Assembly (NCBI GenBank): GCA_000165345.1
Contig: CM000429.1
Span: 811,660 to 875,659, forward strand
Direction: 5' to 3'
DNA length: 64,000 nucleotides
Position numbers: made by a program. Of the stretch, positions 24,001 to 27,000 are shown piece by piece (positions within the stretch are counted from its first letter, which is position 1; each line of letters opens with the position of its first letter).

Positions 24001-27000
24001 TTACAACAGATATTTTGGGGATCCCAAGTTTATCTGCAATATTGATGGCTTTAACAGTATCAGCAGTTTCCCCACTTTGTGAAATAGCTATAGCTCCAGC
24101 ATGTTCACGTGGAAACCCAGTAACAAAAATCTCAGAAGCATCTTTAGCACTTACTGTATTAAATCCGCTGATATGTTCCATCAAAAGCTGAGCAAATAGA
24201 GCTGCATGAAAACTTGTACCACATCCTAACAGAATCATATTTTGAACATTTTTCAATTCATCTAATCTTTGATCCAATCCTCCAAGTTTCACCATATTAT
24301 TATAGGGAGAAATCCGACCTCCAAAGTTTAATGACCTTGCTAAAGCATGTGGTTGGTCGTAAATTTCTTTTAGTGTCCAATGGAGATATGGGGAAGGAGA
24401 AGACTCAACTTTTTCATGGTCAATGGATAATAATCTTGAAGGAGTAATCAATTTGTTAATACCTTCATGAGATAATAAAGCAATTTCACCATCTTGTAAA
24501 GCAACATACTGATTTGTATAATTTGCTAAAGCTGATGTTTCTGAAGCAATATAAATATGTCCAGATTGTACTCCAACAAGTAAAGGAGATCCATGTCTAG
24601 CAAGTATCATTAAATCTTTATAGTCTTTATGTAGAACAGCAATTCCCCAAGTTCCTTGCAAACGAGAAAGAGCCTTTTGAACAGCATTTTGAAAATCCTC
24701 TCCATCATCTAGATAACTACCAATCAAGTTTGCAATTACCTCTGTATCTGTTTCTGATTGAAATTTGATTCCTTTTTCCATTAATTCAGACTTCAAAGAA
24801 CAATAATTATCTATTGTACCATTATGTACAATACTAATTCTTTTTTTATAGTCTTGATGTGGATGAGCATTAAAGTCGGTCTTCCCTCCATGAGTAGCCC
24901 ATCTTGTATGTGCAATACCAATATGGTGGTTTCCATGTAATAGCTCAGAATCGTTCTTAAGCCTTTCAATTGAATCCCCAGATTCTTTAGATGAGTATTT
25001 GGTGGTTATTAATTCTCCTTGATCATCTATTGTACTCATTCCACATGAATCATACCCTCTATTTTGAAGTATTTCTATTCCCTGCATTAAAACCTTTTGA
25101 GCGTCACCTGAACCAATATATCCTATAATACCACAGCAGTAAGCTTTATTAGGAACGGAAAAAATGCTGTTTTTTCTTCCTGTTTTGCAAAGACTCCCAA
25201 TACTTTCAGAAATCATTCCAAATATACGGCTTCCTCTCAAAAAATCAAGTTTTTGCTCATCTTTCATAGTCTTTGTTAACCTCTCAAATCTATAAAATTT
25301 AGATTTTTCATTCTTTTCCTTCAAATCATCATTAATACGGTTCACAATTGGCACCAAGAATTTGTATTTGGAACTAAAATTCATTATCTATCAATTAAAA
25401 TTTAAAACCTTTGATTCCAATTTTCTAAACCTTTTTCTCTCCTTATTTTTTGCCTTTTGAAATTATTGATACAAAAATATTTGCATAAAAAATATGCAAT
25501 GGCGCCAACTCTCCCCACGCAATTATAACTTTGTATTGCTAATTTTAATGTAAATTCAACAGTTAATATATGTGGGGTGAATTTGGCGGCAAATTGTGAA
25601 GGTACCGTAAAGAATTTAAAAAAGGTAATAATGTCGATATATTACAAGAAGTGAATACATGAAAATTATATTAATTAATTGATATAAAAAATTAGCAATT
25701 AAAATAAAACCAATTAGTTAATTTGGTGATAAATAGTATTGCGTATATTTTTTTTTAAGAGATTATAATGGATATTTGTGATTAACAATGTCATTTTTCA
25801 AGCTGTGGGGAATATTGTTGCTGATTGCATCAGTGGAGGCATTTCAAAATAGACTATTTAATGCATCAAGAATCGAGCTTCTTGAGGCAGAATATGCTCT
25901 AGACCGACTTGGGTTATGGAAGAAATTTGCAGATGGAAACCATAGTGATTGTATGGAGTTTACTTTAAGAATTGACAGAATGTTGAATGCTGTTGCAAAT
26001 GTTGATATTGGTGCAATGGAACAGTTTATTGAAATGGATGAATATAGTTTAAAGTATCAGGATATTTGTGGTACAAAGGAAGAACATACAATATCAAGCT
26101 TATATGAAAATGCACCAGGCTGGGGAGGGGAAACCCCTCTAACTATTTTGGCTAGAAGTTCACTGCCCAGAAGCAGCATAATGATGCAAGTTTTGTCATC
26201 TAAAGGTTTAGATTTTGTGAAATCTCAAATGAATGGTTTTACCCCTCTCATTTTGGCAATAATTCATAGGAATTTTAGTGGAGTAAAGGTTCTTTTAAAT
26301 TTAGCAGAAAGGCAGAAATATGCCTTAAATTTGAATAAAACTGAAATTGTAAATAATTCACTAGATGATAAGAACACAAAAACTACTAATTCTGTATTTA
26401 GAAATGTTGAAATTATTAATGAAGTTGACTCTATGGGAAGAACAGCTCTTTTTCATGCAGTACTGATGGAAGATGATGGAATGGTTGAATCTCTGTTAAT
26501 GGCAGGTGCTGAACCAAATATTGCAGATTTCTCGGGAGTTACTCCTCTTCTTCTTGCAACAAAGAAAAACCTTCTCGTCATTGTTAAGCTTTTACTTAGT
26601 AAAGGAGCTGATCAAATAATTCTCGATCCAAGAAACAGAGACCCACTCTCTGTAGCAATCAAAAACAATCACCCAGACGTTATTTTAGCTTTGCTTGAGG
26701 ACCAAACATTCCAAACAAAGTATTTGAATTTCTACCAGTCCTCAAGATATAAAGGTCAAATATTAAGACCTACATACCATATACGAAGACTTCTTGATAT
26801 ATTCACTGTACTTCAGTTAAAAGAGGAAGCTATTCAATCCTTATTCAAGATTGAGTTTCTTAGGAATGATACAAGTCTCTGTGATCTTAGAGATAACGAA
26901 GGAAGAACTATTGTTAACATTGCAACATTTAGAGAGATGTATGATCTTCTTGAAGATGTCTTAGAATTCTACAAGAATGCATCTATTTATAGATACGAAG

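What the first reader, a model, noticed from the sequence alone, without database searches (positions are those of the whole stretch)
25133..25384. GFAT carries an 83-residue extension in front of its obligatory N-terminal catalytic cysteine
Class II (Ntn) glutamine amidotransferases need Cys as residue 1 of the mature protein; in eukaryotes this is usually MCGI..., with the Met removed. Here the conserved CGIIGYIG is preceded in frame by 83 codons (MNFSSKYKFLVPIVNRINDD...PNKAYC). I found no intron that would give a Met-Cys start: there is no AG directly before the TGT codon. The enzyme is therefore inactive as translated, or autocatalytically or proteolytically processed like the PurF propeptide, or it uses a non-canonical start. 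A regulatory propeptide on the hexosamine-pathway gatekeeper would be interesting.
Basis: partly seen in the sequence, partly recalled or inferred. Interest (0 to 1): 0.55.

Follow-up and report, generated by a model that had tools for sequence, protein, structure and literature searches.

The report
GFAT made as a precursor needing cleavage
The Cryptosporidium parvum enzyme that starts amino-sugar synthesis really is encoded with 83 extra residues in front of the cysteine that must be its first residue, so it has to be cut to work; the same kind of leader occurs in most protist relatives, where it looks like a mitochondrial import signal whose cleavage site lies exactly at that cysteine.

Summary
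The window is Cryptosporidium parvum Iowa II. The GFAT gene is a single 696-codon ORF on the minus strand (23294-25384). Every model and solved GlmS structure aligns its Cys1 with C84, so 83 codons precede the nucleophile, and no Met-Cys start or splice acceptor is available.

The extension is a real, translated sequence:
- It is stop-free (chance about 0.0005) and kept in nine Cryptosporidium species.
- Its dN/dS is 0.2-0.5, against 0.04-0.06 for the core.
- M1 is the only conserved in-frame Met.

It is not peculiar to C. parvum. Of the 120 closest homologues, 104 carry an extension of at least 15 residues. The positions before the Cys follow a signal-peptidase -3/-1 rule: A/V at -3, and C/A/N/T at -1. 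Most non-Cryptosporidium sequences also have an Arg/Ser-rich, acid-poor N-region and a hydrophobic stretch, which is the layout of a bipartite mitochondrial presequence. Published Toxoplasma proteomics place its GFAT with mitochondrial membranes.

Cryptosporidium has lost the hydrophobic core but keeps [A/V]-x-C|C.

The best reading is a pro-enzyme that is activated by cleavage at C83|C84. The protease is unknown; a signal-peptidase-type enzyme and PurF-like self-cleavage are both possible. I rate this a new variant of a known kind, of moderate interest.

The parts
23294..25384 (-). GFAT / GlmS-type glutamine--fructose-6-phosphate aminotransferase coding sequence: 696 codons plus stop, no intron
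   Evidence: ORF listing. 100% identical to the annotated C. parvum Iowa II protein. TIGR01135 scores 583.5 bits against a cut-off of 418.
25136..25384 (-). N-terminal extension (pro-sequence), residues 1-83, 9.8 kDa, pI 9.9
   Evidence: Not covered by any family model. dN/dS is 0.21-0.52. Present in nine Cryptosporidium species.
25388..25390 (-). In-frame TAG stop two codons upstream of the start ATG (25382-25384)
   Evidence: It bounds the ORF, so M1 is the first possible start.
25334..25369 (-). Conserved N-terminal motif K-Y-x-F-L-x-P-I-x-x-R-I (residues 6-17). P12 is invariant across the genus.
   Evidence: Alignment of nine Cryptosporidium N-termini. C. felis M29 aligns with C. parvum M1.
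25241..25363 (-). Predicted long, basic, amphipathic alpha-helix, residues 8-48 (low to moderate confidence)
   Evidence: AlphaFold2 model, pLDDT 45-70.
25136..25240 (-). Predicted disordered linker, residues 49-83, leading into Cys84
   Evidence: AlphaFold2 pLDDT about 27-29.
25187..25225 (-). Weakly hydrophobic stretch IFGMISESIGSLC (residues 54-66), a possible degenerate remnant of the hydrophobic sorting segment of relatives
   Evidence: Best 13-residue Kyte-Doolittle window is 1.37, ending 17 residues before Cys84. Most non-Cryptosporidium homologues score 1.6-2.6.
25133..25144 (-). Putative cleavage cassette A81-Y82-C83 | C84 (GCT TAC TGC TGT). C84 is the Ntn nucleophile.
   Evidence: [A/V]-x-C-C is present in all nine Cryptosporidium species. 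The clade-wide -3/-1 rule is shown.
24452..25135 (-). Class II (Ntn) glutaminase domain, residues 84-311
   Evidence: Pfam GATase_6/7. Aligns to the E. coli GlmS glutaminase domain 1xff residues 1-221.
23300..24391 (-). Isomerase (2 x SIS) domain, residues 332-695
   Evidence: Pfam SIS, 7.9e-46. Aligns to 1moq and 2poc.
25500..25507 (.). TGGCGCCA palindrome in the 403-bp divergent intergenic region, 116 bp upstream of the ATG. A likely promoter element, which places transcription initiation upstream of the extension.
   Evidence: Three copies in the window against 0.14 expected, all intergenic. Its role as an E2F-like Cryptosporidium promoter motif is from my own knowledge and was not tested.

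Best explanation
The 83 codons are a genuine, translated N-terminal pro-sequence. CpGFAT is made as a 76.5-kDa precursor that cannot hydrolyse glutamine. It becomes active only when the chain is cut between C83 and C84, which makes Cys84 the free N-terminal nucleophile of a 66.7-kDa enzyme.

The pro-sequence is the Cryptosporidium version of a leader carried by the whole GlmS-like GFAT clade of protists. Ancestrally that leader was a bipartite mitochondrial-type presequence. It had a basic, acid-poor N-region, then a hydrophobic sorting segment, then a short polar stretch ending in a type-I-signal-peptidase (IMP/SPase) site, [A/V]-x-[A/C/N]|Cys1. Removal of the import signal and creation of the catalytic N-terminus would then be the same event.

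Cryptosporidium has only a mitosome. There the hydrophobic core has decayed and the leader evolves fast. It now looks like an amphipathic helix followed by a disordered linker. The start motif and the [A/V]-x-C|C cassette are still kept.

Shown: the extension is real and conserved, the Cys is internal, the clade-wide n-h-c/-3,-1 anatomy exists, and the Toxoplasma enzyme associates with mitochondria.

Inferred: cleavage at C83|C84, the identity of the protease, and the location of the C. parvum enzyme.

My confidence in the parts: real and translated about 0.93; must be removed for activity about 0.85; derived from the clade-wide presequence about 0.7; cut by a signal-peptidase-type enzyme in C. 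parvum itself about 0.35.
For: The extension is real and translated:
- An open frame of this length has a chance probability of about 0.0005.
- Its length is fixed at 83 codons in five species at dS up to about 1, and its dN/dS is 0.21-0.52.
- M1 is the only conserved in-frame Met, and a stop lies 1-5 codons upstream in six of eight species.

The enzyme is active and of the Ntn type:
- C84 aligns with Cys1 of the glmS, purF and asnB models and of the E. coli GlmS structures.
- Catalytic residues are invariant, and core dN/dS is 0.04-0.06.

The clade-wide pattern in 104 extended homologues:
- Position -3 is A in 66, V in 17, S in 7 and T in 5. Position -1 is C in 46, A in 30, N in 15 and T in 8. 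Small or allowed residues make up 95% and 98% of these positions, against 48% and 42% background.
- Mean hydropathy peaks at -21 to -14 and is polar at -8 to -3.
- 42 sequences are clearly bipartite. Their N-regions are 11% Arg, 15.5% Ser and 3.3% Asp+Glu.
- The -3 rule holds in 68 of 68 sequences with a strong hydrophobic stretch. It is relaxed (Q or E in 4 of 8) in the amoebozoan type, which has no such stretch. All Cryptosporidium species keep A or V.
- Asn at -1 with V/I/A at -3 and D/E/H at -2 matches the published Imp1 motif [I/V][H/D/F/M]N| together with a preserved distance from the membrane segment to the site (PMC8835746).

The Toxoplasma orthologue TGME49_231350:
- Its hyperLOPIT profile correlates at r = 0.77-0.85 with four 'mitochondrion - membranes' markers, and at -0.58 and -0.71 with two cytosolic markers.
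- It was captured by ApiCox35-BioID together with cytochrome c and DHODH.
- It gave 9 and 7 unique peptides against none in controls in matrix APEX and BirA* labelling.

The AlphaFold2 model shows residues 49-83 as disordered, which would leave them accessible to a protease.
Against: C. parvum itself lacks two defining parts of a bipartite presequence:
- There is no convincing hydrophobic segment (best 13-residue Kyte-Doolittle window 1.37).
- The N-region has 9 acidic residues, with 7 basic and 4 acidic in the first 30.

Other gaps and contrary points:
- I could not test whether Cryptosporidium, or any apicomplexan, has an IMP (S26A) peptidase.
- In Plasmodium and Toxoplasma the hydrophobic stretch lies 25-48 residues from the Cys, which is far for a membrane-bound signal peptidase.
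- The Toxoplasma enzyme fractionates with mitochondrial membranes. That could equally mean an uncleaved anchor.
- No N-terminal sequence of any mature protist GFAT was found.
- Class II amidotransferases (MEROPS C44) are described as self-processing, so no external protease is strictly needed.
- The homologues are related by descent, so the position counts are not independent events.
Confidence: 0.5

Rival explanations
1. This is a PurF-like autocatalytic propeptide. The Ntn glutaminase domain cleaves its own C83-C84 bond through an N-to-S acyl shift by Cys84. No external protease or organelle is involved, and the extension is a zymogen or regulatory segment.
For: - GFAT belongs to MEROPS family C44, whose members are described as carrying a few residues before the Cys that are autocatalytically removed. 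The PurF precursor is the type example (PMC9140057, PMC4756867).
- The purF model aligns from position 1 at C84.
- Cryptosporidium and amoebozoan extensions lack a hydrophobic segment yet must still be removed.
- The linker before Cys84 is predicted to be flexible.
Against: - Known PurF propeptides are 11 residues long and end in Glu-Glu. This is from memory of B. subtilis PurF and human PPAT and was not checked here. This extension is 83 residues and ends in A-x-C.
- The -3/-1 small-residue rule, a polar -2 and a hydrophobic stretch at a fixed short distance are hallmarks of signal-peptidase substrates. Self-cleavage does not explain them.
- Self-processing has never been reported for GlmS or GFAT in the literature I could search.
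Confidence: 0.27
2. The extension is a gene-model artefact. The real protein would start Met-Cys through a downstream or non-AUG start, or through an unrecognised intron, and the upstream codons would be 5' UTR.
For: No transcript or proteomic data for C. parvum were available here. An old C. hominis TU502 model (597 aa) shows that this gene has been mis-annotated before.
Against: - There is no ATG, near-cognate codon or AG acceptor next to the Cys codon in any species.
- The frame is open, has a fixed length and is under purifying selection in the extension.
- Only M1 is conserved as an in-frame Met.
- Complete ORFs from transcriptome assemblies of related alveolates carry the extension in frame.
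- The TU502 model starts at M100, downstream of the catalytic Cys, so it is the artefact.
Confidence: 0.03
3. The extension is never removed. CpGFAT would then work without a free N-terminal Cys, for example as an ammonia-dependent synthase or with a different general base, or it would be a non-catalytic protein.
For: No direct evidence of cleavage exists. The Toxoplasma orthologue behaves as a membrane-associated protein, as an uncleaved anchored form would.
Against: - All glutaminase-site and isomerase-site residues are invariant, and core dN/dS is 0.04-0.06.
- The residues just before the Cys are the only conserved part of otherwise unalignable extensions. This points to a processing site.
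- Established enzymology of Ntn amidotransferases requires the alpha-amino group of Cys1 (my own knowledge).
Confidence: 0.06
4. The extension is a functional targeting signal for the Cryptosporidium mitosome or for the ER or another membrane. It would be cleaved there by MPP, the ER signal peptidase or another organellar protease, rather than being a decayed relic.
For: - The N-terminal motif with an invariant Pro, followed by a basic amphipathic helix, is conserved across the genus.
- Gregarine-like relatives have short N-terminal signal-anchor-like leaders.
- The cleavage cassette is retained.
Against: - The first 30 residues contain 4 acidic residues, and there is no hydrophobic core long enough for a signal peptide.
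- There is no Arg at -2 or -3 as an MPP site would need.
- Seven of the seven C. parvum/C. hominis amino-acid differences fall in the extension, which suggests weak constraint.
Confidence: 0.14

Closest known systems
E. coli GlmS / human GFAT1 (EC 2.6.1.16; TIGR01135)
   Same: It has the same two-domain enzyme, a class II glutaminase plus two SIS domains. C84 aligns with Cys1, and all catalytic residues are conserved. The core is 613 residues, like the 608-residue bacterial GlmS.
   Different: Those enzymes start Met-Cys and need only methionine aminopeptidase. Here 83 residues precede the Cys. The clade is closer to bacterial GlmS, at 52-54% identity to Patescibacteria sequences, than to human GFAT1.
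PurF / PPAT precursor (MEROPS C44.001), the 11-residue propeptide of glutamine PRPP amidotransferase
   Same: It has the same Ntn glutaminase fold and the same requirement, that a propeptide be removed to expose Cys1.
   Different: The PurF propeptide is short and described as self-cleaved. From memory it ends in Glu-Glu. The GFAT extension is 83 residues here and 20-250 residues in relatives. It ends in [A/V]-x-[C/A/N], and in most relatives it contains targeting-signal features.
Bipartite intermembrane-space presequences cleaved by the inner membrane peptidase (cytochrome b2, cytochrome c1, Mcr1, Gut2, Smac/DIABLO)
   Same: In 42 or more homologues there is a basic, acid-poor N-region, then a hydrophobic segment, then a short polar stretch. 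Position -3 is hydrophobic or small and -1 is Ala or Asn. The Toxoplasma orthologue co-fractionates with mitochondrial membranes.
   Different: The C. parvum leader lacks the hydrophobic segment and has an acid-containing N-region. Cys at -1 is not a described IMP preference. I could not find GFAT named as an IMP substrate in any organism. Here the cleavage would also create the catalytic residue.
Plant ferredoxin-glutamate synthase and GltB presequences (class II amidotransferases whose leader removal exposes Cys1)
   Same: A precedent, from my own knowledge and not tested here, for a long N-terminal targeting or pro-sequence on an Ntn amidotransferase whose mature form begins with the catalytic Cys.
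   Different: It is a different enzyme, targeted to the plastid and processed by the stromal peptidase, with no -3/-1 signal-peptidase motif.

Membership tests
GlmS/GFAT, glutamine--fructose-6-phosphate transaminase (TIGR01135) | Full-length match above the curated cut-off, with a class II GATase domain plus two SIS domains | tested here: met
   TIGR01135 scores 583.5 bits (cut-off 418) over residues 84-695. Pfam finds GATase_6/7 and two SIS domains.
GlmS/GFAT, glutamine--fructose-6-phosphate transaminase (TIGR01135) | Conserved catalytic residues (Cys1, Arg26, Trp74, Asn98, Gly99, Asp123; Ser347-Gln348-Ser349, Thr352, Lys485, Glu488, His504, Lys603 in E. coli numbering) | tested here: met
   Invariant columns in the 76-sequence alignment: C84, R109, W162, N188, G189, D213, S435, Q436, S437, T440, K573, E576, H592. 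K691 is conserved in at least 90% of sequences. The mapping to E. coli numbers follows the alignment and my own knowledge.
GlmS/GFAT, glutamine--fructose-6-phosphate transaminase (TIGR01135) | The catalytic Cys directly follows the initiator Met | tested here: not met
   83 codons precede C84, and no Met-Cys start or splice is possible. The N-terminus of the mature protein cannot be determined with these tools.
PurF-type self-processing Ntn precursor (MEROPS C44) | Class II Ntn glutaminase domain with residues preceding the nucleophilic Cys | tested here: met
   The purF model TIGR01134 aligns from position 1 at residue 84. The family description is in PMC9140057.
PurF-type self-processing Ntn precursor (MEROPS C44) | Short propeptide (about 11 residues) removed autocatalytically | not testable with these tools
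   The length differs (83 against 11). Autocatalysis needs a biochemical assay.
Bipartite mitochondrial IMS-sorting presequence cleaved by IMP (peptidase family S26A) | Basic, acid-poor N-terminal matrix-targeting region | tested here: not met
   C. parvum has 7 basic and 4 acidic residues in the first 30, and 9 acidic residues in the 83. The feature is met in 42 homologues, which average 5.3 basic and 0.3 acidic.
Bipartite mitochondrial IMS-sorting presequence cleaved by IMP (peptidase family S26A) | Hydrophobic sorting segment a short, fixed distance upstream of the cleavage site | tested here: not met
   The best 13-residue Kyte-Doolittle window in C. parvum is 1.37 (IFGMISESIGSLC), 17 residues upstream. 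Among the homologues, 52 have a stretch scoring at least 1.6 within 20 residues of the Cys.
Bipartite mitochondrial IMS-sorting presequence cleaved by IMP (peptidase family S26A) | Small or hydrophobic residue at -3 and small residue or Asn at -1 | tested here: met
   C. parvum has A81 and C83. All nine Cryptosporidium species have [A/V]-x-C. Across the clade the rule holds at 95% and 98%. Cys at -1 is inferred to be acceptable because it is small.
Bipartite mitochondrial IMS-sorting presequence cleaved by IMP (peptidase family S26A) | The organism encodes an IMP peptidase, and the protein resides in the mitochondrion or mitosome | not tested
   The Cryptosporidium genome was not searchable for S26A. 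The literature searches found nothing on this point. Only the Toxoplasma orthologue has localisation data, and they are mitochondrial.
ER-type cleavable signal peptide | Hydrophobic core of about 8-15 residues within the first 30 or so residues, followed by a -3/-1 site within about 5-7 residues | tested here: not met
   The only hydrophobic run near the N-terminus is FLVPIV, and the putative site is more than 65 residues downstream.

The most novel reading that the evidence does not exclude
In Apicomplexa, chromerids, stramenopiles, rhizarians and other protists, the first enzyme of hexosamine synthesis would be imported into mitochondria by a bipartite presequence. It would be switched on by the intermembrane-space signal peptidase, because the cleavage site is the catalytic Cys1. 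UDP-GlcNAc supply, and so GPI anchors and N-glycans, would then depend on mitochondrial import and processing. Cryptosporidium would keep this zymogen logic with a decayed leader and a different, still unknown, activating step.
Probability: 0.35. Interest if true: 0.75.

Novelty: new variant of a known kind. Interest (0 to 1): 0.52.

Why it matters
GFAT is the gatekeeper of UDP-GlcNAc synthesis. Apicomplexan parasites need that pathway for GPI anchors and glycans. The Toxoplasma gene has a CRISPR fitness score of -4.57, and the pathway is essential in P. falciparum (PMC12251206, found).

If the parasite enzyme is made as an inactive precursor that must be cut at a defined site, the activating protease and the precursor are parasite-specific vulnerabilities. 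The human enzyme starts Met-Cys and has neither.

There is also a practical point. Recombinant work on apicomplexan GFATs will fail unless the construct starts at the Cys.

More broadly, the pattern suggests an unrecognised link between mitochondrial import and processing and amino-sugar metabolism in many protists. It also raises the question of how that link was rewired in an organism with a mitosome.

Tried and rejected
- **Hidden intron or alternative start.** I checked the bases before both Cys codons and all in-frame Mets in eight species. There is no AG acceptor, no ATG and no near-cognate codon, so I rejected this.
- **Known domain in the extension.** Pfam on the extension alone gave only a sub-threshold DM14 hit (15.8 bits against a cut-off of 24.6). 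NCBIfam covers nothing before residue 84.
- **Literature on a GFAT extension or propeptide.** Searches for an N-terminal extension or propeptide on GFAT/GFPT in Plasmodium, Toxoplasma, Cryptosporidium or in general found no description. The nearest item is a 2026 preprint that predicts a mitochondrial GFAT in Phytophthora with DeepLoc and calls it cytosolic elsewhere.
- **The 'Plastid' label for TgGFAT.** The label in PMC12292971 looks like a predictor category. The hyperLOPIT profile is anticorrelated with the apicoplast marker Cpn60 (r = -0.41), so I rejected an apicoplast location.
- **An IMP-type peptidase in Cryptosporidium or Toxoplasma.** Two paper searches and two supplement searches gave nothing usable. 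This remains open.
- **MPP-type cleavage.** I considered it and set it aside. K or R sits at -4 in several apicomplexans, but -2 is mostly acidic or His, and an R-2 or R-3 motif would not land at Cys84.
- **Structure search with the model.** I did not run one, because the extension has pLDDT below 50-70 and matches would be meaningless.
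Full report
**What is there.** The window is Cryptosporidium parvum Iowa II. The ORF at 23294-25384 on the minus strand encodes 696 residues and is 100% identical to the annotated glucosamine-fructose-6-phosphate aminotransferase of that strain. Pfam finds a class II glutamine amidotransferase domain and two SIS domains. The NCBIfam glmS equivalog TIGR01135 scores 583.5 bits (cut-off 418), and its position 1 aligns to residue 84. 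The purF and asparagine synthase models also begin at residue 84. So does residue 1 of the mature E. coli GlmS crystal structures 1jxa and 2j6h.

The nucleophile is therefore C84 (TGT, 25135-25133). Residues 1-83 (25384-25136), ending ...PNKAYC, lie outside every known model. The gene is on the minus strand.

**Is it real and translated?**
- The codons before C84 are GCT TAC TGC. There is no AG acceptor and no ATG or near-cognate start.
- The only in-frame Mets are M1, M40 and M57, and a TAG lies two codons upstream of M1.
- The chance of 83 stop-free codons at local base composition is 0.0004-0.0006. The other two frames of the same DNA contain 7 and 13 stops.

I fetched the orthologous loci of C. 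hominis, C. meleagridis, chipmunk genotype, C. ubiquitum, C. felis, C. bovis and C. muris. Synteny is conserved in all of them.
- Five species have an extension of exactly 83 codons, although dS reaches about 1.
- C. meleagridis has no in-frame Met other than M1, so M40 and M57 are not conserved alternative starts.
- Nei-Gojobori dN/dS in the extension is 0.21-0.52 (0.24-0.25 against C. ubiquitum), compared with 0.04-0.06 in the core.
- Across nine Cryptosporidium species the extension varies in length from 60 to 115 annotated residues and is barely alignable. Three features are kept: the initiator Met, a hydrophobic-x-Pro motif near the N-terminus, and [A/V]-x-C-C-G-I at the end.

The extension is therefore coding, retained and under weak purifying selection. 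It is also the fastest-evolving part of the protein. All 7 amino-acid differences between C. parvum and C. hominis fall in it, and none fall in the 613-residue core.

**The enzyme is meant to work.** In a 76-sequence alignment the glutaminase-site and isomerase-site residues are invariant: C84, R109, W162, N188, G189, D213, S435-Q436-S437, T440, K573, E576 and H592. K691 is conserved in at least 90% of the sequences. Ntn amidotransferases use the free alpha-amino group of Cys1 in catalysis. This is established enzymology and my own knowledge. An active enzyme therefore requires removal of residues 1-83.

**It is a clade-wide feature with a recognisable anatomy.** Among the 120 best homologues, 104 have at least 15 residues before the catalytic Cys. 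Only 12 start Met-Cys: eleven sequences of 607-608 residues, several of them labelled as Patescibacteria genome bins, and one 621-residue sequence from an unlabelled metagenome.

The extended homologues include every apicomplexan found (Eimeria, Cyclospora, Toxoplasma, Besnoitia, Hammondia, Plasmodium, Cardiosporidium and a gregarine). They also include Chromera, Spongospora and dictyostelids, and many are complete ORFs from transcriptome assemblies. Introns therefore cannot explain the extensions.

The extensions cannot be aligned with each other, but when registered on the Cys they share a pattern:
- Position -3 is A in 66, V in 17, S in 7 and T in 5. Small or aliphatic residues account for 95%, against 48% background.
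- Position -2 is polar or charged in 97%.
- Position -1 is C in 46, A in 30, N in 15 and T in 8. The allowed set accounts for 98%, against 42% background.
- Mean hydropathy peaks at -21 to -14 and is polar from -8 to -3.

Forty-two sequences are clearly bipartite. They have an N-region of at least 20 residues that is 11% Arg, 15.5% Ser and only 3.3% Asp+Glu. The first 30 residues average 5.3 basic and 0.3 acidic. A hydrophobic stretch follows, ending 5-20 residues before the Cys.

This is the n-h-c layout with the -3/-1 rule of type I signal peptidase substrates. With a presequence-like N-region in front, it is the layout of bipartite intermembrane-space sorting signals.
- A review of mitochondrial peptidases gives the Imp1 motif as [I/V][H/D/F/M]N|[D/E], with a hydrophobic -3 and a preserved distance from the membrane segment to the site (PMC8835746).
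- The 15 sequences with Asn at -1 (for example VEN|C, ADN|C and TEN|C) match the -3 to -1 part of that motif, with Cys at +1 in place of Asp/Glu.
- The -3 rule tracks the hydrophobic stretch. It holds in 68 of 68 sequences with a strong stretch. It is relaxed (Q or E in 4 of 8) in an amoebozoan-type extension that has no stretch and always has T, C or V at -1.
- Apicomplexans and chromerids characteristically have Cys at -1. This is why the C. parvum sequence reads C-C.

**Experimental data for an orthologue.** Toxoplasma GFAT is TGME49_231350.
- In the hyperLOPIT supplement, its 30-fraction profile correlates with four 'mitochondrion - membranes' markers: TOM40/porin (r = 0.85), DHODH (0.84), ATP synthase beta (0.77) and Cox5b (0.77). 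In two of the three experiments r is 0.94-0.99.
- The correlation is 0.59-0.71 with two soluble matrix markers, -0.41 with apicoplast Cpn60, and -0.71 and -0.58 with cytosolic GAPDH1 and TCP-1.
- In matrix-targeted APEX and BirA* proteomes the protein had 9 and 7 unique peptides against none in controls (log2 -2.24, p = 1.6e-5; log2 -2.33, p = 0.0027). This is just short of the authors' cut-off.
- A BioID experiment with the complex IV subunit ApiCox35 captured it together with cytochrome c and DHODH.
- A 2026 preprint predicts a mitochondrial GFAT in Phytophthora, but it regards the enzyme as cytosolic in non-stramenopiles.

I found no paper that mentions an extension or propeptide on any GFAT, or the coincidence of a cleavage motif with Cys1.

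**Where C. parvum fits.** Its extension keeps the two ends of the family pattern, which are the start and the A81-Y82-C83|C84 cassette. It has lost the middle.
- The best 13-residue hydropathy window is 1.37 (IFGMISESIGSLC, residues 54-66). Most relatives score 1.6-2.6.
- The N-region contains 9 acidic residues.
- AlphaFold2 models the core well (pLDDT about 90). The extension is modelled as one long helix (residues 8-48, pLDDT 45-70) followed by a disordered linker (residues 49-83, pLDDT about 28) that runs into Cys84.
- The same decay is seen in C. muris and C. bovis, so it predates the radiation of the genus.

This fits relaxation of an ancestral mitochondrial sorting signal in a lineage whose mitochondrion shrank to a mitosome. 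The need to expose Cys84 remained. That reading is an inference.

**Mechanism and rivals.** I commit to the following. CpGFAT is synthesised as a 76.5-kDa inactive precursor and activated by cleavage between C83 and C84 to give a 66.7-kDa enzyme (masses). The site descends from, and still looks like, a signal-peptidase-type site.

Which protease acts in Cryptosporidium is open.
- The main rival is PurF-like self-cleavage. It is an accepted property of MEROPS family C44, and it would explain how leaders without a hydrophobic stretch are removed. It does not explain the -3/-1 rule or the hydrophobic stretch at a fixed distance.
- An annotation artefact, and an enzyme that is never cleaved, are both unlikely for the reasons given above.
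The rapid divergence argues for weak constraint on most of the sequence.

**Comparison and novelty.** The protein is a full member of the GlmS/GFAT family except for the Met-Cys start.
- It works like a zymogen of the Ntn superfamily. The closest precedents are the PurF propeptide and the presequences of plant Fd-GOGAT and GltB (the latter from my own knowledge).
- At family level, the leader works like the bipartite signals of IMP substrates. C. parvum itself fails two of the four sequence criteria for that class, so I do not file it as a member.
- As far as I could search, a pro- or presequence on GFAT whose removal would generate the catalytic residue is undescribed. I rate it a new variant of a known kind, of moderate interest. 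It is most valuable for the family-level prediction that mitochondrial import and processing activate hexosamine synthesis in apicomplexans, and for the practical rule that recombinant enzyme must start at the Cys.

**Limits.**
- There are no transcript or protein data for C. parvum.
- No mature N-terminus is known for any protist GFAT.
- The presence of IMP in Apicomplexa was not tested.
- The hyperLOPIT comparison used 13 hand-picked markers.
- The position counts come from related sequences and are not independent events.

Noticed in passing
window 868-875, 25500-25507, 57054-57061: The palindrome TGGCGCCA occurs three times against 0.14 expected, each time in an intergenic region. One copy sits 116 bp upstream of the GFAT start, in the 403-bp divergent promoter shared with the ankyrin gene. 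It resembles the E2F-like promoter motif reported for Cryptosporidium (from memory).
   Followed up: partly
window 21661-22728 (+), 23294-25384 (-), 25788-30011 (+); loci L001-L007: The gene order is conserved in eight Cryptosporidium species: an ankyrin-repeat/multi-TM gene, GFAT, then a PIG-M-type GPI mannosyltransferase (PF05007). Two genes that feed GPI-anchor synthesis are therefore neighbours.
   Followed up: partly
window 25136-25384 versus L005 1501-1749: All 7 amino-acid differences between C. parvum and C. hominis GFAT lie in the 83-residue extension (dN/dS about 0.8, from 9 substitutions). The 613-residue core has 22 synonymous and 0 non-synonymous differences. One of the 7 changes is at the -3 position (A81 to V).
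   Followed up: partly
P0125 (C. hominis TU502, XP_667116.1): The old 597-residue gene model starts at the residue equivalent to M100. It lacks the catalytic Cys, so it is an annotation artefact in a public record.
   Followed up: yes
P0078, labelled Hylaeus volcanicus (a bee): This protein is a CC-type, apicomplexan-like GFAT with a short signal-anchor-like leader and is 53% identical to the C. parvum enzyme. It is probably a gregarine or other apicomplexan contaminant in the insect assembly.
   Followed up: no
P0058, P0059, P0068, P0080, P0094, P0100, P0105, P0113, P0114, P0116, P0118: These 607-608-residue Met-Cys GlmS proteins, four of them labelled as Patescibacteria genome bins, are 52-54% identical to the protist clade. 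Human GFAT1 aligns over only part of its length. This suggests gene transfer between these bacteria and eukaryotes, or eukaryotic contamination of the bins.
   Followed up: no
P0055, P0084, P0085, P0088, P0093, P0103, P0107 (dictyostelids and relatives): A second kind of GFAT extension, 33-45 residues long. It has a shared N-terminal RRLxVTQRHL-like motif, no hydrophobic stretch, T or C at -1 and a relaxed -3. It must be removed by some route other than a signal-peptidase-type cut.
   Followed up: partly
P0015-P0017, P0033-P0047 (Toxoplasma group and Plasmodium): In these lineages the hydrophobic stretch lies 25-48 residues from the Cys, separated by low-complexity inserts (Ser/Pro repeats in Toxoplasma, Lys runs in Plasmodium). 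A-x-C|C is still kept.
   Followed up: no
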